From Botryllus schlosseri (lineage: Eukaryota): a stretch of DNA of 64,000 nt. The stretch spans positions 1,736,001 through 1,800,000 of the forward strand of contig CM119372.1 of NCBI GenBank assembly GCA_051294905.1, read 5' to 3'. Position numbers and translations under genes: made by a program. The notes beneath the pieces are model-generated. The model searched no databases. It worked only from the letters and a program-made list of their open reading frames with translations, and was not told the origin of the DNA. Below, in pieces: positions 8,201 to 60,364 of the stretch. How positions within the stretch are numbered: the first letter of the stretch is position 1; the number at the start of each line of letters is the position of its first letter.

Positions 8201-8723
8201 CGGAGTACTCGAGTAGTTATGTTCATAGACTATTTCAACTCCAACTTGAACAGATTTCCAGGAGAGACTACTTGAAAATTTTGCATTTTGATCAGTAGAA
8301 AGTAATTTTAGGATAACTTTGCATCACTTTTGCGTGAAATTGTCATAAAAACTGCATGCGACAGCTTCCTGTGTCCCGGAAACCAACTACATGCTTTCGA
8401 AGATTCCGCCTATCTGCATTGTCAACAGTCATTTTACATTGGTCGCTTGGTCGCTTAGACACATTTGGCCATTTTGAAAGAAGACATCTCCGTAACTGCT
8501 ATAAGTACGCGGCCCCTTGATAAAATCTACTCTAAACTTTTCGAACTTTTCATGTTTTACTTCTATTAGAAATTATGTAAACATTTCTACTTACGAAACA
8601 AGGCTGCCTACCTGGACCGTCTTTACTTGTGACTTAAATACTGTGATGTTATTCAAATGAACACTGCAGTAAACGAACGCAATACCTAGCAGTGCAAGAA
8701 CATATTGTTCAGACACGAAAATT

Positions 8724-11700
8724 CTATTGCTTAGACTGCGGCTTGCTGTTGGTGCCCCAATCGTACTGCATGAAAGTGACCTTGTAGTTGCGATCCTGCA
8801 TCAGGCTGGACAGATGACATTTCTTGTTGCAGTTGGCAGGTAGGCAATCGTAAACCCACTGGACAACCTGAAATCGGAGCAAATAAGAATTTATAACGTT
8901 GTGTTGGCCGCGGACTTAAAATTAGACTGATTAGGACGAAATACCGATACCACTATTACAAATTCAAACTTCATGACAGCTGGACAAAAGATCCCCCGTG
9001 GCAACATAATACATTTTTGGAATATTGCACCTATTTGCAGGGTTGTAATGACTCGAGTCATGTCAGTGAGTCTACTCGGGTACGACTTAGTCACGATTTT
9101 CAAATGCGTAAAATGACTCGACTCGACTCAGGTCAATTTCTGTATTGACTTGACTTGTACTCGAGTCATTGCGCACGACTCGAACCAAGTCATATGACTC
9201 GAGACTAGGACAGCCAAGACATACATTTCAGTGTAACTTCGAAGGATAATAAAGTCACCACATGATTGGTATTTCTATTGGTATTTCGTCGTTTAGTCCT
9301 GATACTTGGAAAATAGGCCCAGAAACTGTTAGGACTGAGGAATATTACGATATTATGAATGCGAGTCATTCTATATCACTCGTGCAAAGTTAAGAAAAGT
9401 GGGTTGAACTCAATACTGAACAGTGAACATAATGACTCGGACTCGCCCCTCTACTGACTAAATCACACTTCATTAGGTGGTGAATTGAAAATGAATCGAC
9501 TTGACTCGAGTCAAAACTGCAAAAGTGAGACTTGGTTACCACCGCGGTAACATATGTTAATGAAAGTAGAACATATCATATCAACTCTTTATGAAAGCAC
9601 CTGAGCGTTATCAGCTCCGAAATCGCATTTGTACCAATCCATGATCTTGCTCAGTTTGACAAGTTTCTTGTCCGCGTCAACGCCACAGCCATCTTCTCCT
9701 TCCAAAAACGCCTCTGCCGCACAACGCAGCTGTTCCATTATTCCCTAGGATACGAAACAAGGCTGCTTCAGAGACAGCAGATGATTGTCAAGAGACAATG
9801 CCTACTAATAGGACTCGGCGCGATCCAATGATTCAAGCACTCAGATCTGAATCGAGTATTAATACTAAGAATTCGAATAGAGTAACGAGATATGATCGTT
9901 TCGAGTACTGAAATTACACGCCCCCCGCCAGTAACAGTTAATTTCATCAACAAGTTATAGTTTCGATACTAACTTCCACAGTGGGAGCCTTGAAACCTTG
10001 ATTGGTCATATCGCAACATAGAAAAAACATAATGCAATAGCTAATCTCGTCACTTAAAATGACCTTTCTGTGGAGTTGCGATCAACCCACAGCGTTGACG
10101 CAAAGTGCAATGAAATGGGCGTGGTCGAAATAGTAACAAACTATCGTTAGGTGATGTAGAACTGGCATCGAAAATGTCCTCCATTACTGCATTTCGTCCT
10201 CCTTTACAGCTTTAACAGCTTAGATAATGGACAGAGTGAACAGAAAACCGGCATAAATGACGTCAAATAGATAATGCGGACGTTCGAGCGGATCAGTCGG
10301 GAGTCAAATGAAAGTGATCGACCTTTTTTTTAGTCAACACAACAAGATTTCCAGTAAATATCCGAAAATCAGCTATTTTCAATTTCGGTAAACTAATTTT
10401 TACGGTTTGGTAAAAGTGTCCTCTTTTCCCGATTCCTAAATATGCTAACCCCGGTGATACTCTAATAATAAATCAAATAACTCAAGTACTCGATATTGCC
10501 CAGAGCTACTAGCTACGCAGAGTTGAGGCTTTTAGCAATATAACAAATTGAGCATGAAGAGATCACAACAGAGGTAGAGAGATAGACTGCAATTGTTTTC
10601 ACACTCACGACTCACCGCAACAGAAATGTGATCATTTCCTTTATTATCAACAAGCACGACACATACAGCCGTACATTGACTAATATTCAAACTCACATTG
10701 GCGGAATAGGTCTTTATCGGCGGACAGCTTTTAGCTCCGCACACCAGAGCGAAATGAATCAGAGGCTCGGGTTTTTCTAAAGCGGCACGCATACGTGGGT
10801 CGGACTTGGAGAAAGGTCTGGTCAACATCCCAACACCCTGAAATAGAAGTGTCAGCAGCCAAGAGTTGCTACGCAAAAAGAAATAACGCCGTAAATGTCA
10901 TTTAATCACTAGTACCAATTTCTAAGACATGACAAAACTGCGTCAAGGGGCAAGTAGAATATGAAAGGCCTGAACAAGGGTTGTAATGACTCAACTAGCA
11001 ATTTTTGGCGACTCCACTTGCCTACAAGTAGTATCTTAATTATGGACAGTCAACGTAACAATTTTAGGCAGTAAAATTTTGAAGGAAAAAGTTATTTTTA
11101 ACAACCCTAAAGCGCATCCACGCAGAATGACTCGCAATTCCACGAACACAGATTCGCACTTTTAACGCTATCTTAGTTTCCTACATGTAATAGCTATTAC
11201 TTTTGCGGAAAGCAAGCGAGCATGATAGACGATTTTTATTCATCATAGTCCTGCGTATTGAATTGTTCAAATTTATCGATACCTACTAATTGCACGGTCA
11301 TTAGCAGAGTCATGGAAATGCCGCATATTATAATATCGAATGACTTGCAAATGTTTCGATCCCTTTTCAGAAAACGTTTGCATTTCAATATCTAGTCGAC
11401 AGAATTTGTCACGTCAGCATGCGATATAGATGCTAAATATTGAGTAATTTATTCATGTTGACATAGACCCGGACATTTTCGGTTGACATTCGTCAGCAAC
11501 TAGTAGACAATTGAAAAAAAAACATTGTGCATCAACAATCGCATCACCAAATACGACTCGCCGGCATGAAATTTCAAATAATAGAAGCAAAGAAACAGCA
11601 AATATATATCTGAAAGTGGTCAGCTTCACAATGCCTCTCAAAATGATTACTGTCAAAGTTATAGCAACAGTGCTCACCTTACGGTTCGAGCGTAAGACTC

Positions 11701-14700
11701 CGTTTTCAATGTCTTGCAAAGAGTAGTCATGTCCACCGATGCGATACGACGCAGAGTTGAAAAACTAGGGTAATAAAAGATATATAAATTGGAAGTCACA
11801 TCTTGCATGGTTCGCAAAGTAGCTAGCAGACTTGGATAACTATATAATTCAATCTCAGTTCGGATTTGGAAGAAAACTACGCCGCTATAATTCTAGTCCT
11901 AACCTATTGATATGAACTGAAATTGTTTCAATTATCAAATCCATCAATTATAATTCTACTCTAACTTGGAAAAATAGTAGTTATAATTCTAATTCTAATC
12001 TAATTTAAAAAGCTGAAAATTTTATAGTTATCCAGCTCTGTATGTAGGCAGCTTTAGTCCAAGCGATACTCATCATTTGAGAGGAGATGAATAATTTCAA
12101 CGCGATATACTCACCTTATATCTTTGCCATGTTGTTGTAGGTATTCCTAGCATGACATTGGCATGGATCACGAGAGCGTTATAAATATTGATGAAAAACG
12201 CAAGTTTCTCTTCCCTTGTCATGTCTTCTACCTGAATGGAAGATTGGAAACACTTCAACTCAGCTCAGTAGAGCAATGTCCAGGATCTATGCAAGGCTTC
12301 ATAAATATAGGGCTGGTCACAATGATTGTGTACTCCAATCTGAATAGGGTGTTAATCCTTCTAATGATCCAGTTTGAGTAAAGAGAGATCATCTTTTCGA
12401 ATACTGAAATTACACTCTCCTTGCCACTAAAAGTTAATTTATCAGTGGGAATGACAGTTTCAAAACTTTTTTCGATCATGGAAGCCTTGAAACCTCGATT
12501 GGTCATATCACAGCACACGAGCATGTAGTGCAAATCTACACACGTTAGTGGAAATGACATAGCTGTGAAGTCTTAATCAACACACAACAACAGGGATCAC
12601 ACTCAAAAATTTATTACTGTTATATCGAACAAATTCGGCAGAACTTTTGACACTTACGTTGAGCCTTTGCAATTGCCCTGTCGATTGCACATAGTCGCGA
12701 AACAATTCGCTGTCTTTCATCCCTTTATAATCCACATACTTGCCGTCGGGAGATAGGAACTGACCGTAGAGTTTCAGGATGTGTTTTCTCAATTGTACCG
12801 CGAGTGCCGACGCTACAAAAGAGAAATAATCGTATCAGAAAAGCGCGACATCTTAACCTGCTACTAAACAAAGGCGAAACATCGCTCGAAGTATGATTGA
12901 AAGTCGGATAACTAGAAAATTTACAGCTTTTCCCAAATATATTAGAACTAGAGTTATAACTACACCGTTTTTTTCCAAGGTGGATTAGAATAAGAAAAAC
13001 TGAATTCTAAAAACACTGGGAAATGGAATTAACTTATGAACTAGGCCTACATAGAGCAACAAAAACCAAGTTCAGGTCATACCAAATATGAGCTCATTCT
13101 CATAAGCACGAGGATGGCAAATGCCTGTACTTGTGGGGTCTTCAAAAATGACTTTTTTTCTCAAATCGTACTGGCTACTTGATAAAATTGTTAGGTTACC
13201 TAATTCAAGCCTACACCAAATTTGGTTCAATTCCAACCAGTGGAAGCGGAGTAATTGCCGTCGAAAAATATGGATTTGAATAAAATAGTATTTACGGTGG
13301 GCACCACTATAATAAATACCGGTAATCAAGAATTGGACACCGTAAACACTATTTTATTCATAATCCAAATTTTTCGACGGCAATAACTCCGCTTCCACTG
13401 GTTGGAATTGAACCAAACTTGGTGAACATCGTTTCTATAGACAAGCTAACACGTTCATGGGGTGAACAGAAAATTTTGAAATTTTTGGTTACCGGTATTT
13501 ATTTTTATATAATAAATAGAAACTTTCTTCTCCTGTATCAATGCGGCTACCGGTTGGAATTGAACCAAATTTGGTGTGCAGGCTTAAATTAGGTAACCTA
13601 ACAATTTTATCAAGTAGCCAGTACGATTTGAGAAAAAAAAGTCATTTTTGAACACCCCTACTGAACTGGTACACCAATCGTGGCTCGTTTCGCACTATAC
13701 AGCTCTCCCGTAACATTTAAATTAGAAATTAGATCATAATTAAAATGGGACCATAGAAACATGTCACAAATCAGATTAGAATTACATTACCGGCATTTTG
13801 CACTAAATAGATGATTCCAAGTTAGGTATGATCGAGACTGAAAACCCTCAATGGCCAATTCTACTTATCACTACATCCTACAAATATACACCAGTAGGGT
13901 TTAGCATCAGCAGCGGTTATACCACTCGAATATTCGAGACATACTCAAAATCTATGTGGCTTTAATGATTATGAGCTTGAAAAGTCGTGCTTTTCCCATC
14001 GACCGCATCATACTTATACTTGAAATGAAACAGCCCAGGGCCTGTCTTGAAAGGCACAAAGTTCATTCAAACTTGAGTAAGCACACTAGCCACAACTCTC
14101 AATAATACACAGGCAAACCAAATCACAAAAACAACAAAATATTTCTACGGCGATTCACATAATAATGCATGACTAGTCTACGACGGACAGGCGCATTGAT
14201 ATTGCCAGCAACAAGGGGATATGAAAACAAGTTTACATTACAGCCCAGGTAGAGTTTACATAATTCAATTCAAGTTTGTACCGGCAGTGCTTTGCGTAAA
14301 TCCAGTCCGAAATCCATATTATCGCTCCATTTTTCGACCATAGATAACTAACCTACAGATAGACGGCAAACACATGACACCACCAGCCGCAGACTTGGAA
14401 AACTGGATGTTTCTATTTGTCTAATTACACTAATTAGTGCGAAATGGCTGTAATCTAATTCTAATCTAATTTGTGAAATTTCCACGACTCTCATTTTAAT
14501 TAAAATCTAATTTTTGGTGTCCCTGAAAATGATACAGCAGAACCGTATTCAATTGAATAGCATATTCATATGAAAATAAACCCGGATATTTTCGGCTGAC
14601 ACTCGTCAGGGGTAATCGATTGTTGATATACAATGTTCTTCCCAATTCCCTACTAGTTGCTGACGATTACCCCTGACGAGTGTCAGCCAAAAATATTTGG

Positions 14701-17700
14701 GTTTATTCAAATATGAATATACTATTCAATTGTATATTGAAGTTCTGTACCTCCAAGAAGCTCTTCAAAGATTGGAATTCTAAATTTTGCTGCATTTCTT
14801 CTCAATTCAGAATTTCATTCAATTTCTTGAGTTTTTGCAAATTCAGTAATGGTAATTCCAATCACATTTCCAATAAAAACATATAGCTATAATTTTAATT
14901 TAAATTTAATTTGGTTAAGCTGAAAATTTTCTAGTTCTCCGCCTCCTCTGTGGATTAGTTATCCATAATTCGACCGACCTAAATCGAAGTTACTATTTTG
15001 TGGATCCGAAAATTAGTCCGACTCCATTTACCTGGCATCGGTTTAATGTCCACGACCACCTGAGCGTTAAGCGATTTGGACGGTTCGTCCTCGAGTAAAC
15101 GGTAAAGTGTCTTGTCGTTCTTGAAGGTGTCGTCGCCGTGAACTGCGCTTAGGAATCGCGATTGGAATAAACCGCCCGCAAATTCGGCAGCCTGCTCCTG
15201 TCCTGAAAAGCACAAAAGAGTGTTTAGTACTATTTGGGAATCGGAAATGCAGGGTTGTAACGACTCGAGTCACGATGTTTTGGTGACTCAACTTGACTCG
15301 AGTCATTTTTTCAAATGCTTAAAATGACCAGACTCGAGTCAATTTGCTTATTGACTCGACTTGTACTCGAGTCATTGTGCGGGACTCGAAGCAAGCATTA
15401 TGACTCTAAACTAGGATGGTCAAGACCGACATTTCATCGTAACTTCGAAGAATAGTAAAGTCACCACATGATTAGTACTTCGTATATCTGAACTGATACT
15501 CGGGAAAATAGGGCCAGAAACCGTTAGGACTGAGGAAAATTACGATAGTATGAATGCGTGTCATTCTATATCACTCGAGCAGAGTTGAAATAAGTGGGTT
15601 GAACCGGGCTGAATTCAAAACTGAACAGTGAGCATAATGACTTGGACTCGGACTCGACCCGCAACCAGCTGACTTGGACTTGGACTTGTCTCGGTGGTGA
15701 ATTGAAAATGACTCGACTTGACTCGAGTCAAAACTATAAAAGTGAGATGGATTTGAGACTCGCAGCCTTGTGACGTGGTTACAACCCTGCTGAAATGTAA
15801 AAATATTATAATATACTATGTAGGGTTGCGCACGATAATTGGATTATTCGAATCTAAGTCGGGTATTAATTCTAATGATTTGACTCAAGCGGCGATAGAC
15901 GATTCTTTCTAGCACAATACTGAAATGATACGCTCCTTGCCAGTAGAGTTAATCTATCAATGACATTTATGCGAAGTCGTGATCAACCCACGGCAATGTC
16001 TCAAAGTGCAATGAAATAGGTATGGTCGAAAAAACACCAAAGCATCTTTAATGTGATGTAAAAACTGGCATAATATTCTCAGTTAGCCGCATAAAGGTAC
16101 GAGGGCTGTTCAAAAAAAAAACTTCTCCTTCAGATTTCACTGGCTACTTGATAAAATTGTTATGCTGGTGAAAAAACGCTGCACACCAACTTTGGCTCCA
16201 TTCCAACCACTAGAAGTGAAGTTATTGCAGTAGAAAACTTTCTAATTCAATGATTTTATAATAAATAATTAAAGAGTTGGTCACCGTAAATACTATTTTA
16301 TTCAAATCCAAATTTTTCTACTGCAATATCTTCGCTTCTAGTGGTTGGAATTGAGCCAAATTTGGTGTGCATCATCTCTACTGACAGCCCAACAATTTTA
16401 TGGGGTCGGTAGAAAAATTTTGAAATTTTATTTTTTTGTTTTTAATGATATAAATTCAAAACTTTCTACTGCACGAATCTTGCTTCTACTGGTTGGAATG
16501 GAGCCAAAGTTGGTGTGCAGCGTTTTATCAAACGACCTAAAAATTTGATCAAGTAGCCCGTGAAATCTGAAGGAAAAGTTTTTTTTTAACAGCCCGAAGG
16601 TACATATTTGAACATTCCCTATCATTTATACCGTTTTGAAGTCATGATGAGCGGTACTCGAGTCGAAGCCTCATACTCTACTCGGTATCAAATCGATTTA
16701 GCCACGCTGTGGAAGAAAATGAATGAAAGAAAAACGCTCACCACATCCTTGATGCTGTTGGATCCACGATACCAGCTCACATCCCATAAAGCAACTCTTG
16801 TGCACCACCAACAGATTTCTGTAACAGATTTCGAAAGTCGATCACAAGTTGCAAATATGTATATGTGAATTCAGAATCAAAGTCAATTTCCAAGTTTTTC
16901 GCGAATTCTGTAATTCCAATTCTAATTCTAATCTAATTTGAAAATAATACTGCGTAGCTATCATTCCAATTCCAACCGAATTTGAACAAGCTGAAAATAC
17001 ACTAGTTGTCAAACTCTGCGAGAGACAGCGCCACCATTCATCGGTATTATAAAATACAAGCGAAACAAGAAAACGTTACCGATGGTCTTTCACGACTCCA
17101 CTCCTTTTGAACAAATGAATGAGGCTCGCGTCGTCATCATTTTCCTCGGGAATTTGCGCTACAATCAAGAGATAGCGTCTGTGTGAGTTTCGCATATACC
17201 AAATCCGGTTAAGCAGTATTAGCAAAACCGATAACAGGAATCATTTATTGTGACAGCAAGTGGGAGAATTGGCATTTTGATTTCTTTCTGGTTCTATAGT
17301 CTAGGTTCCAAAGGCGTTGTGGCTGTAACCAAGGCAGTTTCATATTGTTAGTCTGAAGCTGGAGTCTGGAGAAGGAAACGTTCGGAAAATGAGACTAAAT
17401 CGATTCCGAAAAGAAATATGAATACAAAAGACTACTTAGCTACCGGCGACGTTTGGAAAATGATAGAAAATAATGTAGTAGACATCTCTAGCCCAACGAA
17501 TGACGGCATACAATAGGTAGCCTATCCAAAAGGTACGTCGATAATGGAAATCAGGCATAAAAGACGATAGAGATACCTTCTGTTGAAGCGGCATCAACAG
17601 GTGCAGGCACGGGTGGGGCATTTTTCGGAACTGGTCTCGTCTTGATTTCGTCGATAAGTTTCAGAAGATCCTCTTTCGACTGAAAATTTCACATCGATTA

Positions 17701-20700
17701 TCATTAGGAATGGCAATATCAATATCGGAAAAATGTGCGAGATCACTATACCGGTGGTTCCTATTTTCCCAACCTTTTTGTTATCACAGATTGCTTTAGA
17801 CAAATTTAATTAATCCTGCAGACACCTGAATTTTGCCTGAAACTCAATTAACATACTGTTGACTGTTGCGGTAATTATGTTAATCATACGGTACTGTGTC
17901 GAATTGCTGCTGTTGTTAGAAAGAAGAAAAAACAGAAGGAACGAACGGAAGAACAAAAGTTGAATTCAATATCGGTACGAAATTGAATAAACAATGGACA
18001 ACATACGAGAAAAATGAGGAAATATTTAAATAAAGACGTGATAGGCTGACGACTTGAACTAAAATCACATGCTTTCTGTTCTGTAATAAACGAGGCAATC
18101 CTGATTTGACGGTATTCACCATGCGTTGTGGTAGATGCAGCATTGTGGTGTAAGGTCAATGTACGACGTACGTACACACACTGTTGGCAGCAGCATCCAT
18201 TTATTTTAATGCATATTTGTACAGCATATTCTCGCGTGACACATGACACAACTTGACACATGCACAGCTAATGAGAGAAATGAAAGTTTCTTCGTTTCCC
18301 AAAAATTCATCAAGGTAATCACATACCCCAAAATTCTTGGGAAACACTGCACTATACACTTCAGTAGCATTTTCAGGAAAGCCAGAAATTTGGAAAGTGA
18401 TTAGTAGGGCAAGTTTTTGCAGCTTTTGCAACTTTTTTATACAGCTTCCGGCAGCTTCCTAAATACTCGGAAGTTACGTAAAATGCTTTTTTATGCTGTT
18501 TGAAGGAATCTTATAGTGCAACTTTTTGCAACTTTTCGATTTTTCATGAAAGTTTTTTGATTTTTCATGCAACCAACTTTTTACTGGAAATATTTGGCAG
18601 TATCCTATATGTAAATAGATCGCTTGATTATTCGACTGAAATATGGTACCGTAAAACAGCACTGAAGTAACGCTCCAACAGGTATTTTGGAAGCTGAGCC
18701 GGAAAGTTGACCTTTTTTTTTAGTCAACCAACGGAGAATGTGGTCTTTTAGTGCAACTTTTGTGAAAAATAAATGCAACTTTCCACGGATTTGACTGCAA
18801 CAAAAACTTGCCCTAGTGATTAGTTCTAGGTCTAATTGAGAATTTTGAAAAGTGAGCAGTTCTAGTTCCAGTTGTGAATTTTGAAAATCCAGTACGTTAT
18901 ACAAGTCTGGTCAATGCAGAGTTCATGCGGTGTTAGATAGACTTCAATTACCAAGCTACGGAATTCCTCTATTCCTCCCACATGAATGCTATTGAAAAAG
19001 ATTTGCGGCAGCGTGCGTTTACCAGTCAATTTCATCACCGGCTTCCTGTGGAAATTACAAGTTGAAATTTAGCTACAATCACACATGCATCAACTGGTGA
19101 TTAACGGCGGAATCAATATCCCAGACAGAAGAAATAAAATTGACAAATTAGCTTATTGAACATAATACAACAGCGGGATTTAGAAGCAACAAGGTTTCTT
19201 TGTTGGCATACAAGTGTTCTAAGTCTTATAAGTCTGAGTTCAACCTGATTCACAAACATCCATTCTTAATCTTGACTTGACTTGAGTCATTCTGTGTATT
19301 GTTTCGACTTGTACTCGAGTCATTGCGCATGACTCGGAACAAATCATATGTTTCGAGACATGCACTTCGCTGTAACTTCGAAGAATAGTACACTGCCGCA
19401 TATTCAGTATCATTGACTATCAGTAGGCTTACTGGTCTTTGTAAATAGGGCCAGAAACTGTTTAGAGCGAGGAAAACTACTATATCATGATTCATGAATG
19501 TGACGCATTCAATATCGACAAAAAAAGTCAAAAAAGTGAGTTGAACAGGGCTTGAACTCGAAAATGAACAACAAACACAATGACTTGGACTCAAGACTTT
19601 GAACTGTGACTTGGACTCGAGTCAGCGGTGAATTGAAAATGACTCGACTTGACTCGAGTCAAAATTATAAAAGTAGAATTGACTTGTAACTCGGGACCTT
19701 GCGACTTGGTTCCAACCCTGCTTATCAGTAACATGAAACCCATAAAATTATTATATAAAATTATATACCAAGATAATTTAAAGAAAATTACACTTTCGAA
19801 ATTATACCTTGACAAATTACAGTTTTGAAATTATATAAATTACTGATGCAGATTAATTGATTAGCTCACAGACTCACAGACTCGGGTTTAGAACCACTAT
19901 GTAGCAAATCCAACCTGAAATGGGGGTTGTCGTCCATATTGACTTCGGTGAAAGGCAAATTGAGGTCTTCAAATTTATTCTTCACGACGCGGCAATGCGG
20001 ACATCCAGAAATCGAGTATAACGTGATCCTTCCCGGGTATTTCTCTGGAGAATCCAAATGCAAAAATATTCAATAGAGTCAATTGGTGCATGCAGATAAC
20101 TTGAGATAAGAAATACGATAAAGTCTAAGATTTAACGTCCTACAACTACAGCTGGGCACAACGATTGAAGAACTGAATCGAGTATTAATTCTAACGAATC
20201 GAGTCGGGTAGTGGGAGATGATTTTTTTCAAGTAGGTCTACTGAAATTGCACGCTCCTTGCTAGTAAGAGTTGAATTATCAACGAAAATAATAGTTTCAA
20301 TAGTATTTTTCACCATGGAAGTCCTGTTGGCCGTATAGCAGCATACAAAATATTGTAGTAGGCCTACTAAGCTACTCACGATACTGAAAATGCCATATCT
20401 GTGAAGTCGTGATCAACCCATGGCATCGTCACAAAATGCAATGAAATGGGTATGGTCCACAAAAATACAAAATCATCTTTAATGCGATGTGGAACTTGCA
20501 TTATATTCTTTATGCTAGCATAAAAAGTACATATTAGAACTTTCCGCAGTTACGGCATCATAATAAGTGACAATCAATACTCGATTCGACGCCAGATATT
20601 CCATTCAGAATCGAATCACTAAGCACTCGATCTTGTCCAGCTCTACCTATAATCTTTAACAAGAACATCGAAAAAACACTGAATTCTACACTTGAACTTT

Positions 20701-23124
20701 CTATAGAAATTGTACACCAGCATGTCACAAAACTTATGACGCTCAGCCATACCTGGAACTGGAGGTGCGGTTTCAGGAATGGCATTCTCCCGTACATCCG
20801 ATATTAAATCTTCGAGTTCATTCTTTCCCTGATAAAGAAAATGGTAAATAATTATTTCCAAACAAGTATGCTCAACTCAACACAATCTGTAGCTGCTCGC
20901 GGCACGTTGTCTGGCAGTAGGTTGAATATTTCTTGACATAATGTAACAGTATGTTAATTTGAGAACCATTACAATGGACAATTCCTGGAAGACTGGTAAA
21001 TCTTAATTATCCCTAATCATAATTTAAATGATTAGCGATCCTCTTTCCTTACAGATATTAGTGTTCTATTTTCATGTATGGTGTAAGCTATCTATAGGCC
21101 CCCGTACTCAAGTTTCTTAATAACTAACATGCCTACCTAACAGTGCTTTACTAACAGCATTGCTATTCCAGGTAGGCAGGCATAGTCAGTATAGTATGCT
21201 AATCCACTGAGCCATTTCATAAGGCACAGGTCACAGCTGCAGACAATATGCTAACTGTCGAACCTGACAACAGATATTCATCATTCCTGACAGCAGACAC
21301 CGAAAGCACTACGACACCTACACAGCTGATTACAGTGAAATAGGAAAATTGGGTGTTTCTGACACTTACCAATGCTTGGAAGTCATCATTGCCGCCAACA
21401 TACCGTCCATTAAAAAATATTTGAGGAACAGTACGTCTTCCAGTAAGCTCAATGACTTTCAATCTAAAATATATTACAAGTTATTTTCAGATTTACCATA
21501 GTACGGTATATAGTACTAACCTAATTGGAATTATGCTAATTGCATTGGACAATCAATGGTAATCAGGACCGTAACTGCCGCACTCCAAACCCCCCCAATT
21601 AGGGGGGGGGCGAGCTCAAAGGGGGCCCAAAATTATTTCGTGAATTAGCATAAATTATAAAGTAATTTTTGAAAATTTATGCATCTTTTTCAAAATTTTT
21701 TCGCCCTCCGCGCGATATCAATTTGTAAAATATCTTGATTATTGGGTACTCTTCACCCAAGAAAAACTACGCAAGATTTATGAAAATGGGCATATCGGCG
21801 TTGGCCATTACCGCGCCACGACGCACCAAGATATATAGTTTTAGGCCATGTAACATGCGACTCCAAGAAATGTGCCAGAATGATCGGCAGCGAGAAAACC
21901 TTGGCCAAAAAGAACTGCACTTATGCTGATATGTATAGGTTTAATTGTCCATAGACGCCTAAATGACCGACTCCGAATGTTCCTGTCTTAGCAATCTGAA
22001 CCTCACAAGAGAAATACCATCCCACAAGGAAATATTATATGCCAGTGAAGAAATACCAATTTGAAATCGTGTGCGTCTTTTAGTTTAGTACATTTATGCT
22101 ATTATATATTTTTGATATAGCGGAGGTCACGATATAACATCATGTAACGAAGTCATACCAACAGGTCCGTCCGCCTGAAGATGTTTAATTAGCCTATTAT
22201 TTACGGGCCTTACAGTTTCCAAGACACCTCACTCAGCTCTACCGGTAAATCTGATAACGCAAGTAGAGAGGACAAGAAATTGATACCAATATATATGCAA
22301 TTCCCGATCTTATTGACCGATTTTATTATGAATTATTGACAATTTTCGCGCTTGTCGCGTGCTCACTAAATTGTACAACTAATTTCGCGGTAAAAGCGAA
22401 CAACGTGATGGGGGGGAGGGTCGGTTGAGCCCAAGACCCTAGTTTTTTTTACAGGGGCTGACTAAGTGCTGTTTAGTTCCTGCCAGCAGGTATACGCCCG
22501 AAGATATTTAATTATTATTATTGAGTGGTCCTAACTTTTCAAACACACCTCACTCCGCTCTACCAGTAAATCTGATTACGTGAGCAGAGAAAGGATAAAA
22601 ATTGATAACAATATATATGCAATTCTCGATCATATTGATCGCTTCAATCATGAATTATAAAAAAATTTCGCGCTTGGCGCTGTTAGTCGAGAAAAGCTCC
22701 CTCATTAAACGGACACTCAATATAGATGATAAGTAGTGGTAAACAACGTATAAGGAGAGCGGGGTTTGGAGGGCGAAGCCCCCCAGAAGTCCGGTTTATC
22801 ACCCTATGGGGGGTCCAAGACCAACGTTTTGGGGGGGCTGGCGAAGTGCTGTTACGGCCCTGATGGTAATAGCGGTGGGCCTATACAACATGAATAACGA
22901 AATCCGATTTAGTCTATTACGGTAGCGCACGAGATGCTTAAATCTGTAGGGCGAAATTTAAAAAACAAGCAATTTTAACCCATCGTATCATACCTGTACT
23001 CGGGATTTTCGTCCAAGTTTACTTCGGTGTAACTCAAATTCAATTCGTCTAGCTTCGTTTTCGCGGCTTTGCAGTGTGGGCATCCAGTAATCGAGTACAC
23101 GGTTACGCGGCCTTTCAATTGCAT
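8724..23124 (-). CDS. Glutaredoxin x2 - DEP - DUF547 domain protein, 15 coding exons, 580 aa
   Basis: Exons, all GT-AG and phase-consistent (1743 nt including TAG): 23124-22994, 21463-21370, 20828-20753, 20044-19915, 19045-18952, 17679-17577, 17158-17080, 16818-16742, 15202-15032, 12812-12658, 12231-12115, 11764-11678, 10837-10697, 9744-9601, 8867-8724. Grx1: YSITGCPHC...TGRRTVPQIFFNGRYVGG. Grx2: YSISGCPHC...TGKRTLPQIFFNSIHVGG. DEP-like: VKDHR...HKSCFMGCELVSWI...FLSAVHGDDTFKNDKTLYR. DUF547: EKLAFFINIYNALVIH, YSLQDIENGVLR, EPLIHFALVCGAKSCPP, LSKIMDWYKCDFG, YDWGTN. Confidence 0.92.
11440..11585 (-). mobile_element. Degenerate Penelope 3' tail with hammerhead relic
   Basis: Aligns by eye with 34160-34305. 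The minus strand reads CUGACGA-AUGUCAACC-GAAA-AUG-UC-CGGG, with the stem I 5' strand deleted between the two CUGANGA boxes. Confidence 0.65.
14547..14770. mobile_element. Inverted pair of Penelope pLTR/hammerhead units (both cores mutated)
   Basis: A minus copy at 14581-14612 (triplet UUC->UCC) and a plus copy at 14670-14701 (GAAA->AAAA, UC->UU) form a ~190-bp imperfect palindrome in intron 9 of the Grx gene. The flanks match the 34150-34240 tail. Confidence 0.75.
15250..15789. mobile_element. hAT MITE with GACTC/GAGTC subterminal repeats
   Basis: TIR CAGGGTTGTAAC / GTTACAACCCTG; TSD CGGAAATG/CTGAAATG. Copies at ~9038-9546, ~19240-19720 (reverse) and 63861-64000 (partial). Confidence 0.85.
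18405..18815. mobile_element. hAT MITE
   Basis: TIR TAGGGCAAGTTTTTG / CAAAAACTTGCCCTA with a perfect TSD GTGATTAG. Confidence 0.85.
21564..22862 (+). mobile_element. Non-autonomous hAT element, copy 1 of 3 (intron 1 of Grx gene)
   Basis: TIR CAGGACCGTAAC / GTTACGGCCCTG with a perfect TSD ATGGTAAT. Confidence 0.9.
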
Positions 23125-24277
23125 TTTAGCGGCGCGAGGCGAGCTCTTCCCACGACAACCACTTCTCAAAAACGTGAATCGTACTGAATTATAAATGGTA
23201 TGAAATAAGTTATATATTAGCTTTCCGCTCCAGTTAGCGTACTTGTAAACAATCCGCCACTCATCGTGATTCAGCAGTCCTGTTCGCACGTTATAGCATA
23301 GCCTTTGTAAAGGCTATGGTTATAGCAAAGCTGACGTATATACGCACTACGCAGGCAACATGCACGGCCCGCTAGGGTTGCAACGCTCTCTCTCCATCAG
23401 TTCGGTTTATGTTGGCCGACGGTAATGAGGCAATAATATATGTGGCTGACTGAGGGAAAACTTTGATAAAACCAGTATCAATTGAATGCTATCGGGGTAC
23501 TGATTCACGAAAAAACAGATTAGATCTTATTCTGTTCAAGGTCACACGAATCCCCACAAAATCACCCGTAAAATTTACGCTACGATAAAATTGGATTTGG
23601 ACGAGCGGTCATTTATCGGAGAAACGATTCCTCAGCTCAAGAGAAGTGAGGAGAACAACGTCTCTCGTGTCGATTGCTCGATGCTCAGTCGCTGCTCGAG
23701 GGCAATACGATCGCTGCCTCGAGGTGTTATTGATAAACATAGCTACCTGCTTGCAAGATAAATAGGCTACAAAACGACGTACTGATTTATCAAGTACGGC
23801 GGATCACGACTTTGTAACAGTGTTTTGTCGGCAATTCGACAGGCGACTAGCATCGAAGTTCGCACTCAAGTTAAAATAAAAGCAAATTCGATTGAATTAT
23901 TATATAGTCTGCGATCGAGATTATACCGGGTTACGATCTGACATAGCCTATTTATCTATTTCGCCTATCGACACATGTAACTTCTTTTTCATCGTATATC
24001 TACATCCCTTTTATGCGATATGCTGTTACTTTCAATTCAATGTACAATGCACTTACACATGCCTAGCTCTTATTGAGATGTCGTAGGCCAGCGCGGTATA
24101 CTATATTTTGGATTGAAATACCCCTTCAAGTCGCTTCCACCCCCTCTATCCCCCTTCATTTCATCCAAATCTTGTGGTGTTTAGAAATAATAAAAAATTA
24201 TTATTGCTGAGATTGACGGAGAATTATACACCGTACATCAGTTCAGTTCGGTTTATCAGCAATTTTTATCAGTTTAA

Positions 24278-32619: not shown

Positions 32620-33810
32620 TTACCGTTGCTGATAAGGCATGTTTTGTTGAGGCTGGTTTTGCGCTGGATTCTGATTGTACTGCATGCCTTGATGCGTCTG
32701 CTGGTTGGGATACTGAGGCGGGTAGCTTGAAGGCAGTTGTTGCTGATATGGGACTTGCTGTTGCTCGTGAGGGGCCTGTTGCATCTGATGATTAGGCTGT
32801 GGTGTGTTGTACCCAGTATATCCTGGAGATGCATTTGGAGGAGCAGGACGGCCGTAATATGGCCTTGGCTGGTTTTGAATCATACCTTGATGGGAAGAAA
32901 CAGGGTATTGAGACTGTGGTGGTGGTGGTGCATGTTGGTATGCACCAGGAGGTGGTCCTTGCGAGCCAATTGATGCATTAGGTGGGTATGCATTAGGCTG
33001 TGGACCGTATTGTGCACCCTGCTGTGTCGGTTGCTGATTGGGAAAGGCTGAATTCTGCGGATATGAAGGAGGTTGGCTAAAAGCCTGCGAATAGGATGGG
33101 GTTGACTGTGGGTTTGCTTGAGGGTAAGATGTATTTTGCTCGTTATACTGAGACTGCGGTTGTTGGTATGAAGGCGTTTGATGAGTTGGTAATAACTGCG
33201 GATTTTGAGGAGGATACTGCTGATTTGACGCGGGCGATTGTCTCTGACTCTGGGTCGAATCGACTGGGCTACGTAAAGGCGTTCTTGTTCCTGACGAGTT
33301 CGGTGGCTGATGATACTGAGGGGGGTATGAGTTTGGTTGTGGCGGTGGGTTAAAATTGGGTTTCATTTGCGGTGAGGAACGGTGTGTTTGAGGAGACGCA
33401 TACGGCGCTTGGGGTGTCGGTGGGTTAGAGCCGATACCATTTGACTTAGTGGTGACGACTTGCGGATTGTTAACGCTGACGGGTGCTTCGTTTTGAGGTG
33501 ATTGAAAAGTGGATGCAATATCCGATCTCGGTGGTTTAGGTGAACCTAAACTTCCGGAAACACCTTTCGGTGACGATAACGAAACTTGCGGATTGCCAGT
33601 TTGGTTTGAATCCGCGACCGTGGCGAGCCATACCAAGTTACGGTGCAGTATTTGCTGGTACTGCGCTGATTCTCGAATGTTTCCGCTGCTTTGATTGTCG
33701 ACGATGCACTGGATCAAGTGACCGTTCTCGTCTAGTAGCTTTTGAATGGTTTCTTGCGTGATTTGGCCTTTGTTGCCCCGAACATGTTCGGGAACGAATA
33801 TGCTGGACAT
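32620..33810 (-). CDS. SS18: SS18/SS18L1 (SYT/CREST)-family BAF complex subunit, single coding exon, ~396 aa
   Basis: The ORF from the ATG at 33810 has an SSXT domain (ITQETIQKLLDENGHLIQCIVDNQ...QYQQILHRNLVWLATVADSNQ). A long Q/P/G/Y-rich low-complexity tail follows, ending ...MPYQQR. A ttttcAG acceptor at 33849-33848 lies just upstream, so the track's N-terminal extension to 33990 is probably not coding. Confidence 0.92.
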   Translation of the reverse strand: MSSIFVPEHVRGNKGQITQETIQKLLDENGHLIQCIVDNQSSGNIRESAQYQQILHRNLVWLATVADSNQTGNPQVSLSSPKGVSGSLGSPKPPRSDIASTFQSPQNEAPVSVNNPQVVTTKSNGIGSNPPTPQAPYASPQTHRSSPQMKPNFNPPPQPNSYPPQYHQPPNSSGTRTPLRSPVDSTQSQRQSPASNQQYPPQNPQLLPTHQTPSYQQPQSQYNEQNTSYPQANPQSTPSYSQAFSQPPSYPQNSAFPNQQPTQQGAQYGPQPNAYPPNASIGSQGPPPGAYQHAPPPPQSQYPVSSHQGMIQNQPRPYYGRPAPPNASPGYTGYNTPQPNHQMQQAPHEQQQVPYQQQLPSSYPPQYPNQQTHQGMQYNQNPAQNQPQQNMPYQQR

Positions 33811-34149
33811 TGTAGCCGTTATTACAGGTGATATATAATTATTCAATCTGAAAAATATCAACACTGTAGGACAATGGTGAGCCAAACACAGATAGTTTGG
33901 AACCGGTCTTATATGAAAATGTGGCCAACCTGAGAATGATAGGGCCATGAAGGTACTTGTTCTGCTCGGGTATACAAGATTTGTGAGCAAACATTTCCGA
34001 CTATTAATATTAACAAGACAAAGTTGCGTTTCAATCTAACTGATGGTCACGTATAGCTTCTACGTTCGAAGAACTTGTTGTCAACTTAGACTGACCACAG
34101 ACGTCTCCTTGACTTGATGACTTCAAATTCATGGAATACAAGTTTTGGT

Positions 34150-34590
34150 CAATCGAATAGTATATTCATATTGAAATGAACCCGAATATTTTCGGCTGAC
34201 ACTCGTCAGGGGTAATCATCAGCAACTAGTAGAGAATTCGAAAGAACAGCATATATCAACAATCGTAACACAAAATATGACGTCACCAGCACGAAATGTC
34301 GAATACGAGAGCGTTCCATGTACTATTTTTAGATGATACACAAACTCTTTTTGTTGACACAGCCTTGGCTGGTGTATTTTGATAAAAGTCGACTCCAAGG
34401 CACACAAATGAAAGTGTGAGCGACCCTTTCCGAGTATGCGAAATCTGTCGTCTTGATAATTTTTCGCACAGGCGGGATTATCCAACAAGTGTTTGCCAAT
34501 TGCAGAATTTATGGCCTTTGATTGTTCCGCATCAATCTTGAGCGGATAAGTTAAGGGTGAGCTTTTCACCGAGCGTGTTCTGGTCACAAT
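34150..34590 (-). mobile_element. 5'-truncated Penelope-like retroelement (GIY-YIG endonuclease C-terminus + pLTR-like tail)
   Basis: ORF 34219-34587 contains SAIGKHL...FRILGK...LESTFIKIHQPRLCQQKE, the C-terminal half of a PLE-type GIY-YIG domain. It is followed directly by a hammerhead-bearing tail that recurs elsewhere in the window. Confidence 0.8.
34177..34218 (-). ncRNA. Minimal type I hammerhead ribozyme (Penelope-associated)
   Basis: The minus strand reads ACCC-CUGACGA-GUGUCAGCC-GAAA-AUAU-UC-GGGU. It has stem I ACCC/GGGU, an intact CUGANGA and GAAA core, a G-C closed minimal stem II, a palindromic helix III (AAUAUU) and a UUC cleavage triplet. The predicted cut is between 34184 and 34183. 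Confidence 0.8.
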
Positions 34591-34880
34591 TTGAACTTGA
34601 AGTTTACATCAAATATGATTTATTCCTTGTATAGATGGATAAATACACTATTTATGTATCGATTCAGGAATCTGGCTCGCCAAGTAGTGCTACTTATTTT
34701 CCCACATCACGCCCGCCGACTGATGAAGTTGCCCACCGGCCACCCCAAGTCCCCCAAACTGTGATTTTTTTATATGGCATGCAGACAAAATATACGACAC
34801 CGATTATCGCATTATTACGGGATTGCCAGCCCAGCAGGAGTACGGTAATTTAAATGTCCTAATTTATGATAGTAAAAGCT

Positions 34881-38196: not shown

Positions 38197-41100
38197 TCAT
38201 AATCGACTAGACATTTCTTGGCTCTCAGTCCGCACTTTTAGCTGCGACCTCCTGTTGGCGGTCCAGGCAGCAGCAAGGCCCATTGCACACAACAGGAATA
38301 CGCCCATTGCAGCAATTCCGCCCCATATGAAACCTTCATTTGCGCTCCCGTCGCTGAAATAACCTGAGAACATACAGCAGCGTGTCAAATTATTGATCAG
38401 GATCATCGCGTTACACTCACTAAAGTTTGCAAAGTGTATATCGGACGACTACATTTTCCTCGTATATTCAGGCAGTGCGTTTCAATGTACCAGCAGACTT
38501 GGACAACTAAATAATTCTAGTTGTCTAATTTGTGGAAATGCTGGCATTCTGATTATAATCTGATGCATGAAATCGTCAGTACTTAAGTAGCAGTAGAAGT
38601 AACGCCATCAGTAGAAGTAACGCCATAAATTTCTCCTAAGTAGAAGTAGCAGTAGAGATTTACAAGTCAAAAAGTAAGTATTCTAGGCCTAATTTTGTCT
38701 AAAAACAGTTAAGTAGAAGTAGAAGTAGTCCAAAATAAACCACTGCAAGAAGTAGTACATGCAAAATCTGCTTGAAGTATATCGAAAAGAAGAAGTACTT
38801 CATTACTAAGCAACCTCTAATCTCATTTCTTGTTTACCTGATAATACCACAGGCCAAAGGCGAACTGCATAGTGCGATACGAGCCAAACTTAGTAATGTA
38901 CAGACATTTGTCATTCTCATGCATATGTGAATAAACTCTGATTAGGTATTAACCGAACTTGATGTGCTGATATGATGACCGGCGAGCGTAAAAATGCTGA
39001 ATAACGGCGTCGTCCCGGTTAAAGGTATTTGTGATCTGTTTATGATCGGAAGCCTTTTTCGTCGATGGAGCCACACTTACCCCATAATTTGTCAATCTCA
39101 ACCAGCTGACGTCACAATCAAGGACTCGTGACGTCATTGCTTCGAAAAAATCGCCATGTCGATTTATGTTTCAAATGCAACCCTAATTGTCATGCCTCAT
39201 GCGCATGTGTATGAGCTTTGATTTGGAGTGAGCCCGCCGAGCTTGATTTTTGTTGCATTTCTTTCTGATCAGGAATTTAATTCAATTTCCACGATTTTGA
39301 GAGTTAGCAATTCTAATTGTAATCTAATTCGGAAAAGTTGGAAAATTTTCATTGTTCCACCCTGCGCGCCTCTACTTCACGTAGTACAATGTAACACGGC
39401 ACGCCATACTTACGGAGTGGTGAGTGCGATTTTAAAATGTTTTCATCCAACTTTGCCTCCGCGTCATCACTCCTGGTGCTTCGTCCCAACTCATCAAGAC
39501 CTGTAAAGTCGCAAGATCCCACATAAAGATAACCACGAGCAATTGGCATGTTATTTGCGGAGGTGGTCATATTTAGAAAAAGACATGTCAAAATTCTTTG
39601 CAGATGTAGAAAATGAGATTGAAAAGTATATACTCGAGTAGTTTCGAATGGTCACTATGGCAGTGCGACTTCACAACCAACGCAAAGTGGCCCTGACCAG
39701 CATGTACTATAAATTGTTGTAATTTTCCAAGATATTTCCGTTACCGTGAAGCATGGTCTAGGGCAGGGGTCGCCAACTCGAAACGGGTCGCGGGACACTT
39801 TTCAAGTTTCGTGGAGGCTACGGGCCGCGAGAATGCAATATTGAGGCAAAATCGGTCACACTTTTAGCAACCACGTTTTCAAATCTTAACGTCAGTAAAA
39901 CACCGTGCTCTCCGACACGGGCGAAGGGCATAGTTACCACAAAAGAAGTAATATTTTATAACAAAATATATCATGAATAACAATTTCATTTTATTTTAAA
40001 CTATGAGCTGCGCACGATACTTGACGCTCTTCAGCGACTAAGGAATCGATATTGGGGCTAGCAAAATAATTGGGGCTGAATTATTATCTACTGTTTGAGC
40101 TTAATTTTGAGGGAAATCCCTAAGCCGTTTTTAAGCGTCTTGGTCTTGGCAGTGTCTGGACCATCGCACGTCAAGGCAATATCCCCAAAATCCAATTCGT
40201 ATTAGCTGACTCTCCTTCGATAAAATACTGTTGCCGTCGCCGAAGCCATTCCAGCTAGTGAGGAATTGTGATGTTGTGCACAGGAGAATAGCAGGTTTTG
40301 AACAACAGCAATATTTTGAAACTGAAATCAATTTCAGCATTTCAAAATGCCTTAGCTTTCTTCCGAAATCTGAGATCAGTCTTGGGACTATATTTCACCC
40401 GCAGTCATAATGAATATTTACTCGTACACAAGATGAAAACAAATACCAGAAGTATTTTTCACCTTACAAAATCAAAACTAGTAAGTTTGTCTGCAATAAC
40501 TGTCTGGTTTGTCGAATAACTACCAAGTAGAATTCGAACTAATCTGAAACATCAACTACTAATAAAGTATGTACGCAAACTCGAATTGATTACAACGAAA
40601 ATGTACGCAGCTACTGATCATGATCACCGCTGAATATTGGCCATACCTTTTTGCTTAGGTTTGTGTGGAGATCCGACTTGTACCGACTGCGAGCTAGTAG
40701 CATGTCGTAGTCTTGGCGTCGGCACTGCGGTGTTATTATTTCCCAGCGAGTAATTACCCGGCGAATCTGTCGTACTTGCAGTGTGTCTCGCATTCTCGGT
40801 TGCTAAATCGCCCGTGGCCGTCTTAGATGGCGCTACGTCGATATCTACGTTGTGCGATAACCTGCTATCCCGTCTCTCAGAATCGTCGTGATCATTCCCG
40901 GAATGTTGATATTCTGATCCGGACCCAGATCGAGACAAGCTACTCTCTGGTGACCCTGTGATTACCGAATTCAGCAAGTGAATCATCGTCAGGGACTCGC
41001 TTAATTCCACGCTTTCCCGATATTGATCGGAGCTTGAAGAAATATCACCATCAAGTCGAATATCGCCAGCAGTTTCGCCATTTCCATCAATATCGTGAAA

Positions 41101-58880: not shown

Positions 58881-60364
58881 GGAGATTTGGCACTATAGTA
58901 TGGATACCTAATGGTAGGCGGTGACGTGACGCCCCTCCACCTTGGCTGTCGCGACATTTCTACAAAAATAGTTGGGAAAAGCAGAAGTTAGAACAAGTTA
59001 GTACCGGACACATTTAGTCAGAGGATATTGCTTTGATTTTGGGGTCGGGGACATTATCTGTTTTGATTTCCAATCGTAGAGTATGGTAACAATGACTTGG
59101 GTGCAGTGCGGGCACGCGGCACGCCATTCACGCACACCTGGTCGACTTCGACAACTAGACAATTCGATTTGTCCGAATAGACGAATTAGAACGAAATGCC
59201 GGTAATCTAATTCTATTGTGATTTGTTTCTCTGATCTAATTTTATTTCCTAACTGATTTCTGTTTTCTCTGAAACTGGTATACTGGGTTGCTGGGAAACT
59301 GTTGGCCTATATGCGCAACTAGCCAAGCTTGCTTATGATAATGAGCTCTGATCTGATATGAAATGAACTTCATTTCCTAATTCGGAAATTAATTTAATGC
59401 CCGGATTTTTGCGAGTTCAGTGATCCTAATCCTTTAATATAATTAAAAAACTGTATGAAAATGCTGGATATTTTCCAGTTTAGAATATTTGATTTGTATC
59501 GTGAGACTGAACAATTTCAACAAAGCTTTCTGATGATATGTATTACTAGTTTACAATCCTGTAAACATCAGAAGATATCTTGTGCCAAGGCTTCACAAAC
59601 TACGGCCGCGACCTCCGAAGGGGTCGTGTAAAGAATCTCTAATTCAATACCGTATGTTTATTTCAACACAAAATATTACCATACTTTGACACTTTGATCG
59701 TTTAATTTCGATAACTTTAAATCACTGAATATTATAAGTAATAAATAGCCTGTAATAAGGGCTGGCTATAATTGATTACCATCGTAAGAGTAGATGTGAT
59801 GTGTAAAGTTCATATACCTATCTTCTATACCAGTGGTTCCCAAACTTGTGATGTCGGAGCCACATTTCAAATATCAATGTTTGTATGGGCCGCATACATC
59901 GCTAATCTGCGCCTATCAATGCCAAGATAAACCGATATAGAATCTATAGAAGTCTATGTGAATGCAGAGACGAAACAGAAAGGTCTATGACCAGCAGAAC
60001 TCGAGATATATCATTGTCTGACGGGTATTCATCTATGCGTTTGACGATAGTCTGCAGGAATTCTATTATCCCGTTTTCAGAAGCGGCCTTGGACGGCTTT
60101 AAACACAACTAGTATCCCTCATTTTAGCATTCATATACGGAAATTGACTATACGTATTCATAGAAACAAACAACTGTCGTATACTATATTTTGTGGCATA
60201 TTTAGGGGTCAATCAGAGCCCCAAGAAGGCTACCTTGTAGCCGCGGTAAATTATATTGCTTTCATTTTGTTCCACTTCTGGTAGGCAATATAACATTATT
60301 TATTCATAGGCAATGCTTACCTGAAAATATTCCCGTTTTCAACTACAACCGACGTTACTTCGCC

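What the first reader, a model, noticed from the sequence alone, without database searches (positions are those of the whole stretch)
17577..23124. Tandem duplication of a three-exon glutaredoxin module gives a Grx-Grx-DEP-DUF547 protein with two CPHC dithiol sites
Seen: exons 1-3 and 4-6 are paralogous, with the same donor phases (2,0,1) and equivalent intron positions in the Grx domains. Exons 2 and 5 are both 94 nt, both copies keep GCPHC, and both end in an APPVP linker. The copies are well diverged yet open (TVPQ vs TLPQ cis-Pro loop, GGND vs GGIE), which suggests both are under selection. Known: the family as I know it from plants and animals has one Grx before DEP-DUF547 and is uncharacterised. 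Inference: this is a lineage-specific two-Grx architecture, possibly with different substrate specificity per domain.
Basis: partly seen in the sequence, partly recalled or inferred. Interest (0 to 1): 0.72.

Follow-up and report, generated by a model that had tools for sequence, protein, structure and literature searches.

The report
Double-glutaredoxin Grx-DEP-DUF547 gene, sea squirt
A probable sea-squirt gene from a widespread but unstudied redox-protein family carries an old, selectively maintained duplicate of its three glutaredoxin exons, a rare two-active-site form that is a modest variant of a known family rather than a new system.

Summary
Observation confirmed. The gene has 15 coding exons on the minus strand and reads openly as 580 aa: Grx-Grx-DEP-DUF547. 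Exons 1-3 and 4-6 are paralogous (phases 2,0,1; 51/96 identical; both CPHC). The duplication is old and both copies are under purifying selection (pS 0.755, saturated; pN 0.30; introns unalignable). The form is rare: 1 of 342 Grx-bearing homologues fetched has two modules. That one (P0037, an unnamed Styela-like sequence) shows the form is not confined to this genome. Its modules are 91% alike, so it is either a second duplication or the same one homogenised. The nearest named relative is Styela clava (single Grx). RNA confirms expression, three splice events and use of the exon-3 donor, but the 20753->20044 junction was not displayed; inclusion of exons 4-6 rests on thin depth evidence. Different specificity per domain is unshown: module 2 has two substitutions not seen in the family beside the glutathione site, but its overall departure is within the family's range. 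Likely mechanism (inferred): tethered dithiol domains serving a conserved Cys pair in DUF547, with DEP an optional targeting cassette. New variant of a known, uncharacterised family.

The parts
22994..23124 (-). Exon 1: start codon and N-half of Grx module 1 with CPHC (C15, C18); donor phase 2
   Evidence: RNA-run contig piece ends exactly at 22994 and begins at 23145
21370..21463 (-). Exon 2 (94 nt): cis-Pro loop TVPQ and GGND of module 1; phase 0
20753..20828 (-). Exon 3 (76 nt): last helix and Pro-rich end of module 1, 9 codons shorter than exon 6; phase 1
   Evidence: bin depth fits exon 3 alone, not read-through
19915..20044 (-). Exon 4 (130 nt): duplicate of exon 1 with no start codon of its own; CPHC (C115, C118); phase 2
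   Evidence: in-frame stops 9 and 12 codons upstream and no ATG between them and the exon
18952..19045 (-). Exon 5 (94 nt): TLPQ and GGIE of module 2; phase 0
17577..17679 (-). Exon 6 (103 nt): last helix of module 2 plus the ancestral-length linker; phase 1
   Evidence: about 9x depth in RNA run X18, zero in X20 and X22
15032..17158 (-). Exons 7-9 (17158-17080, 16818-16742, 15202-15032): DEP domain, a phase 1-1 cassette that can be skipped in frame
   Evidence: fish and Ciona database isoforms skip at equivalent borders
8724..12812 (-). Exons 10-15 (12812-12658, 12231-12115, 11764-11678, 10837-10697, 9744-9601, 8867-8724): DUF547 region with the conserved Cys pair C471/C476 in exon 13; stop in exon 15
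   Evidence: RNA-run contig splices exons 13-14-15
8300..8723 (-). Transcribed 3' flank (3' UTR, end not defined)
   Evidence: contig and read depth

Best explanation
One gene of the Grx-DEP-DUF547 family in a stolidobranch (probably styelid) ascidian, in which the three Grx exons were duplicated in tandem long ago. SHOWN: the gene structure, the paralogy, purifying selection on both modules, expression, and the rarity of the form. INFERRED (about 0.85): exon 3 splices to exon 4, so the main product has both Grx domains; the downstream copy lost its start codon and became a phase 1-1 cassette. INFERRED mechanism (about 0.35): each CPHC domain is a thiol-disulfide oxidoreductase that, tethered in cis, reduces the conserved Cys pair of DUF547 or something bound there. 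DEP is an optional membrane-targeting cassette. The extra domain adds a second dithiol carrier on a short flexible link: module 1 keeps the family-consensus glutathione-side residues, while module 2, next to DEP, has drifted or been tuned there.
For: Gene model and phases. pS 0.755 against pN 0.30, 5 of 24 four-fold sites identical, and only exon 1/exon 4 align in DNA. Under neutral substitution the chance of exons 4-6 staying stop-free is 0.009-0.09. Exon 4 has no ATG, and no ATG-to-phase-1-donor mini-exon matching my patterns was found in intron 3. The exon-3 donor is used: 1577 bases laid against 1596 expected for exon 3 alone and 2541 for read-through. In run X18, depth per exonic base is 5.9 (exon 3), 5.2 (exon 4), 8.9 (exon 6) and 12.9-14.3 (exons 6-8). 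P0037 carries both modules in one 580-aa frame on a 2404-nt contig. AlphaFold2 folds P0037 with two Grx domains and a low-confidence link at residues 89-96. The DUF547 Cys pair is C/C in 355 of 370 motif matches among 416 proteins scanned and in 29 of 29 strict matches in bacterial ORFs. 43 fetched proteins have Grx and DUF547 but no detected DEP, mostly 376-aa fish isoforms.
Against: The 20753->20044 junction was not displayed: the joint table showed 15 repeat-derived joints and hid 398. The depth figures come from roughly a dozen reads of one run, binned. One X1 bin (1696 bases) lies between the inclusion (1901) and skipping (1470) expectations. All skip isoforms are in frame. Both modules, like all 219 family modules, lack the Lys three residues before the CxxC that PMC11724882 describes as binding glutathione, so ordinary glutathione chemistry is not assured. 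Bacterial DUF547 relatives had a Grx/Trx-like ORF in only 1 of 80 loci and no Grx fusion. Module 2's excess departure is not significant (8 v 2 columns, p 0.11; non-redundant 7 v 2, p 0.18).
Confidence: 0.6

Rival explanations
1. Alternative cassettes: each mRNA carries one Grx. Exon 3 skips to exon 7, or hybrid forms (exons 1-5-6, 1-2-6) are made, and the two-Grx protein is minor or absent in this species.
For: All these splice paths are in frame, giving 471, 480 and 480 aa. The family already uses phase 1-1 skipping for DEP. The contig lengths fit skipping as well as inclusion.
Against: Exon 4, with its own CPHC, is under selection yet has no start codon or evident first exon, so it needs exon 3 upstream. 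Exons 4 and 6 show depth like exon 3 in X18. A contig running unbroken through exon 3 implies a single path out of it in X1 (inference). P0037 has both modules in one frame.
Confidence: 0.12
2. Dosage or tolerated redundancy: both domains are made and do the same job; module 2's differences are ordinary divergence under purifying selection.
For: Module 2 departs at 8 of 43 conserved columns, and 14 of 56 non-redundant modules depart as much. Relative-rate tests were significant with 1 of 9 outgroups. P0037 keeps two near-identical modules (91%). The Val of VP binds glutathione through its backbone (PMC11724882, passage), and a solved Synechocystis Grx has SLPQ.
Against: Val before the cis-Pro is present in 219 of 219 family modules. 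Ile after GG is in 0 of 56 non-redundant modules. These changes sit with D170E, D171E and Q173R at the glutathione-contact helix. The module-2 branch is 0.61 against 0.25 for module 1.
Confidence: 0.4
3. Origin: one old styelid duplication, later homogenised by gene conversion in the P0037 lineage and lost or unannotated in Styela clava. The alternative is two independent duplications (about 0.4), or P0037 as an assembly product (about 0.1).
For: The window's modules are less alike (53%) than either is to S. clava (59-61%). In both two-Grx proteins the first module lacks the 9-14-residue tail that follows the Pro-rich end in fish, Ciona, S. clava and window exon 6. At 9 sites where P0037's modules differ, the window's modules match by position 5 times and crosswise once (sign test p 0.22).
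Against: AU tests reject plain positional orthology (module 1 pair p 0.0012; module 2 pair p 0.0052) and do not reject the window's modules as sisters (p 0.32). All four S. clava records have one Grx. P0037 is a single record from a single contig.
Confidence: 0.5
4. The family, and so this protein, serves metalloid (arsenic) or sugar chemistry at DUF547, with Grx as the built-in reductant.
For: Among 80 bacterial loci: ArsM-like genes in 2, TIGR04283 arsenosugar glycosyltransferase-like in 3, MerA-like FAD oxidoreductases in 6; a conserved Cys pair. Earlier AI notes make the same link (leads only).
Against: These neighbours are a minority. The commonest context was fusion to a GH15/trehalase-like domain (23 of 80, many from Chlorobiaceae). 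Nothing in the window bears on it.
Confidence: 0.12

Closest known systems
Grx-DEP-DUF547 family: plant 'class IV' GRX-like 1/2 (PMC13621322) and animal orthologues (fish zgc:152951; Styela clava LOC120342896, XP_039267870)
   Same: Domain order Grx, DEP, DUF547. CPHC site as in 177 of 219 animal-dominated modules. DUF547 region 71% identical to S. clava. Conserved DUF547 Cys pair.
   Different: Two Grx domains instead of one (341 of 342 Grx-bearing homologues have one). Module 2 has Leu156 and Ile169, which are not seen at those columns in the non-redundant family set.
P0037 (unnamed Logan sequence, 580 aa, 85% identical to S. clava)
   Same: Same Grx-Grx-DEP-DUF547 order and length, both sites CPHC, short link between the modules.
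   Different: Its modules are 91% identical and both follow the consensus; module 2 keeps a Met at its start; not positionally orthologous by AU test.
Dithiol class I glutaredoxins of the bacterial Grx3 type (PDB 2KHP, 1FOV, 3GRX)
   Same: Best sequence matches of the Grx domain; CxxC, cis-Pro loop, GG; fold match.
   Different: No Lys three residues before the CxxC; fused to DEP and DUF547.
Multi-Grx proteins GLRX3/PICOT and plant GRXS17 (recalled, no call)
   Same: Tandem Grx domains in one chain.
   Different: Those are monothiol CGFS iron-sulfur-binding domains behind a thioredoxin domain; here the domains are dithiol CPHC in front of DEP-DUF547.

Membership tests
Grx-DEP-DUF547 family | N-terminal glutaredoxin domain | tested here: met
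   PF00462 in exons 1, 2, 4 above cut-off, exon 5 below; present twice
Grx-DEP-DUF547 family | DEP domain after the Grx | tested here: met
   PF00610 on exon 8, E 5.5e-5, below cut-off as a fragment; region 49-54% identical to S. clava and P0037, whose DEP passes the cut-off
Grx-DEP-DUF547 family | C-terminal DUF547 with the conserved Cys pair | tested here: met
   PF04784 above cut-off in exons 11, 12 and 13; C471/C476
Plant class IV GRX in the strict sense | CxDC/S-type active site (recalled from Couturier 2009, not read) and long N-terminal extension | tested here: not met
   Sites are CPHC and the protein starts at the Grx; plant-like hits carry CQDC, CQEC or CRDC and long extensions. Filed as the animal branch, not as the plant type.
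Class I dithiol glutaredoxin | CxxC active site, cis-Pro loop (TVP) and GG motif (PMC4765768, passage) | tested here: met
   Both modules; module 2 has TLP
Class I dithiol glutaredoxin | Lys before the active site that binds the glycine carboxyl of glutathione (PMC11724882, passage) | tested here: not met
   Ile in both modules; no Lys in any of 219 family modules. Its placement three residues before the first Cys is recalled.
Class I dithiol glutaredoxin | Glutathione-dependent oxidoreductase activity | not testable with these tools
   Needs a biochemical assay
Multi-domain monothiol Grx (GLRX3/GRXS17) | CGFS sites and N-terminal thioredoxin domain (recalled) | tested here: not met
   CPHC sites; no thioredoxin domain before module 1

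The most novel reading that the evidence does not exclude
Styelid ascidians gained a second Grx cassette once. One lineage keeps the two copies alike by gene conversion, while this lineage specialised the DEP-proximal copy into a non-glutathione disulfide relay, so that electrons pass from glutathione to Grx1 to Grx2 to the DUF547 Cys pair, with in-frame splicing switching between zero-DEP, one-Grx and two-Grx forms. This would be a natural experiment that exposes what DUF547 and the class IV-type glutaredoxins do.
Probability: 0.15. Interest if true: 0.62.

Novelty: new variant of a known kind. Interest (0 to 1): 0.36.

Why it matters
The Grx-DEP-DUF547 family is conserved from plants to fish and, according to a 2026 review (PMC13621322), its plant members have no biochemical characterisation. 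DUF547 found no structural match here. A natural two-Grx version, present in a diverged form (this gene) and a near-identical form (P0037), gives matched constructs for asking what the Grx domain reduces and whether it acts on the DUF547 Cys pair. The exon layout also shows Grx and DEP as phase 1-1 cassettes. As genome evolution, tandem exon duplication is ordinary, so the interest is moderate.

Tried and rejected
Stand-alone Grx gene from exons 1-3 (read-through stops 36 codons into intron 3): rejected, because RNA-run depth fits splicing at the exon-3 donor. Assembly artefact in the window: rejected, because the modules share 171 of 288 nucleotides and the introns do not align. Pseudo-exons 4-6: rejected. 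A third copy or paralogue in the window: none. Direct junction evidence: the single read-laying run was swamped by intronic repeats and did not display the junction; no listed holder was on record as RNA, and X1 is RNA only by guess. Complex prediction of the P0037 Grx2 domain with its DUF547 region: no answer, score 0.00. Fold searches of a DUF547 model (P0017, pLDDT 94.6): no Foldseek match at E <= 0.001, best VIA-align Z 4.5; none of the 60 shown of 120 PDB sequence hits covered DUF547. The metagenome scan gave 7 loci, each with one Grx and none useful as an ascidian relative. No whole genome was held. Papers: searches listed nothing on a two-Grx form or on an animal member of the family; I saw listings and abstract starts only, and no supplements, where gene tables could mention it. 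Earlier scan notes had nothing on this gene.
Full report
Observation. The region holds the 5' part of a 15-exon gene on the minus strand, from ATG at 23124 to a stop at 8724. All 14 introns are GT-AG and the joined frame is open for 580 codons. Exons 1-3 (131, 94, 76 nt) and 4-6 (130, 94, 103 nt) end in phases 2, 0, 1 in both sets, and the two modules align without gaps at 51 of 96 residues, both with GCPHC. Pfam on single exons gives Glutaredoxin in exons 1, 2, 4 and (weakly) 5, DEP in exon 8 and DUF547 in exons 11-13. Fish and Ciona isoform borders and an S. clava splice variant place the ancestral exon end 9-14 residues after that motif, so exon 3 is the shortened copy.

Age and selection. 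Between the modules pS is 0.755 (saturated; 5 of 24 four-fold sites identical) and pN is 0.30. In 0 of 2000 bootstraps did pN reach pS. In DNA only exon 1 and exon 4 align; the introns do not. A neutral copy would stay free of stops with probability 0.009-0.09 under substitutions alone. Both copies are therefore old and maintained. Exon 4 has no start codon, in-frame stops lie 9 and 12 codons upstream, and my simple pattern search found no ATG-bearing phase-1 mini-exon in intron 3.

Organism and rarity. The nearest named protein is Styela clava LOC120342896 (DUF547 region 71% identical, against 57-64% for the other tunicate and amphioxus proteins compared), so the source is probably a styelid ascidian (inference). 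Three searches of the 5.8-billion protein set (the best 120 listed of 199, 1176 and 335 hits) and one of the 50% representatives (the best 150 of 10204) gave 415 family proteins. Of these, 342 carry a Grx and 1 carries two. The set is rich in fish and is not the whole family. A phmmer query with two modules should favour two-module targets, and none other rose to the top. The exception, P0037, is an unnamed 580-aa sequence on a 2404-nt Logan contig, 85% identical to S. clava, with two Pfam Grx stretches. All four S. clava records have one Grx.

One origin or two. P0037's modules are 91% alike and 85% and 88% like S. clava's single module, whereas the window's modules are 53% alike and 59-61% like S. 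clava's. AU tests on a 30-row, 97-column tree reject pairing first with first (p 0.0012) and second with second (p 0.0052). They reject neither the window's modules as sisters (p 0.32) nor window module 2 grouping with the Styela modules (p 0.35). So P0037 is a younger duplication or a homogenised one. Two weak hints favour a shared origin: both proteins have a shortened first module, and at nine sites where P0037's modules differ the window's match by position five times and crosswise once (p 0.22). I put a shared origin at about 0.5, independent origins at 0.4 and an artefact in P0037 at 0.1.

Expression. Four runs were laid once. Intronic repeats dominated, the joint table showed 15 repeat-derived joints and hid 398, and the 20753->20044 junction was neither seen nor excluded. 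In X1 (RNA by guess) one contig splices exons 13-14-15 at the predicted borders. Another starts at 23145, leaves the genome at the exon-1 donor and runs on for 441 nt. The bases laid in the exon-3 bin (1577) match exon 3 alone at that contig's depth (1596), not read-through (2541), so the exon-3 donor is used. In X18, after subtracting X22 as a rough repeat background, depth per exonic base is 5.9 for exon 3, 5.2 for exon 4, 8.9 for exon 6 and 13-14 for exons 6-8; X20 and X22 are zero in the repeat-free bins. This is a dozen or so reads, and one X1 bin sits between the inclusion and skipping expectations. Because phases repeat, skipping exons 4-6, 2-4, 3-5, 7-9 or 4-9 all keep the frame. I put co-inclusion as the main product at about 0.85.

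Are the domains different? Against 219 family modules, module 2 departs at 11 of 43 conserved columns and module 1 at 5. Val before the cis-Pro is present in 219 of 219, and Ile after GG is in 0 of 56 non-redundant modules. These positions, and the following acidic pair, contact glutathione in class I enzymes (PMC11724882 and PMC4765768, passages read). Against over-reading: the excess is not significant (p 0.11 and 0.18), 14 of 56 non-redundant modules depart as much, only 1 of 9 relative-rate tests was significant, the Val contact is through the backbone, and a solved Synechocystis Grx has Leu there. Both CPHC sites, the cis-Pro and GG are intact, so module 2 is probably active. Specialisation is possible and unshown. 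Both modules, like the whole family sample, lack the Lys before the active site.

Mechanism. AlphaFold2 on P0037 (119-row alignment, mean pLDDT 91.4) gives two Grx folds joined by a low-confidence link, then DEP and DUF547; Foldseek matches Grx and DEP structures. DUF547 holds a Cys pair (C471, C476) that is C/C in 355 of 370 motif matches among 416 proteins scanned, one of them unrelated, and in 29 of 29 strict bacterial matches. Forty-three fetched proteins have Grx and DUF547 without a detected DEP, mostly 376-aa fish isoforms, and two checked pairs (a fish, Ciona) skip at borders equivalent to the window's exons 7-9; these are database models that I did not check against reads. From this I infer that Grx plus DUF547 is the working core, that the Grx reduces the DUF547 Cys pair or its ligand, and that DEP is an optional targeting cassette (a membrane-targeting role is proposed in PMC13621322). 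This step is inference, about 0.35. The arsenic link raised by earlier AI notes is thus only weakly borne out in this subset.

Comparison and verdict. It is a member of the animal branch of the Grx-DEP-DUF547 family. The plant members are called class IV GRX and are described as biochemically uncharacterised (PMC13621322, passages read; Couturier 2009 not read). Seven literature searches (listings and abstract starts only, no supplements) showed no two-Grx form. Tandem Grx domains are known from GLRX3 and GRXS17 (recalled), which are of another class. The finding is real, rare and apparently undescribed, but it is a domain-number variant made by an ordinary process: new variant of a known kind, interest 0.36.

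Noticed in passing
window 32623-34035 (-): Long open frame encoding an SS18/SSXT-family protein (PF05030, E 1.5e-27) with a Gln/Pro/Tyr-rich tail, about 396 codons from the likely Met with no interruption.
   Followed up: partly
window 60206-62872 (+): 889-codon open frame with several C2H2 zinc fingers.
   Followed up: no
window 40627-41649 (-), 47222-47728 (+), 34222-34608 (-): Open frames of 341, 169 and 129 codons with no Pfam match; the latter two look by eye like retroelement fragments (recalled resemblance).
   Followed up: no
window introns, e.g. 9036-9530, 15248-15791, 19273-19722, 13170-13658, 16103-16595, 21563-22336: Several families of dispersed repeats, some palindromic (MITE-like), at 67-86% identity; they dominate read depth in RNA runs.
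   Followed up: no
P0227/P0139, P0087/P0093 and about 40 fish and shark records: A DEP-skipping Grx-DUF547 isoform (mostly 376 aa) recurs in database models across teleosts and sharks and in Ciona, at borders matching window exons 7-9.
   Followed up: partly
L015, L020, L027, L029-L031, L038, L046 and others (23 of 80 loci): Bacterial DUF547 fused behind a GH15/trehalase-like domain, often in Chlorobiaceae; VTT-domain fusion in L002 and probably L023.
   Followed up: partly
P0089, P0096, P0112, P0114: Several mollusc and other orthologues have N-terminal extensions that look by eye like mitochondrial targeting peptides; the window's gene has none.
   Followed up: no
window 23125-23200 (-): A pyrimidine-rich AG lies about 58 nt upstream of the ATG and could be a trans- or cis-splice acceptor; the RNA-run contig begins at 23145.
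   Followed up: no
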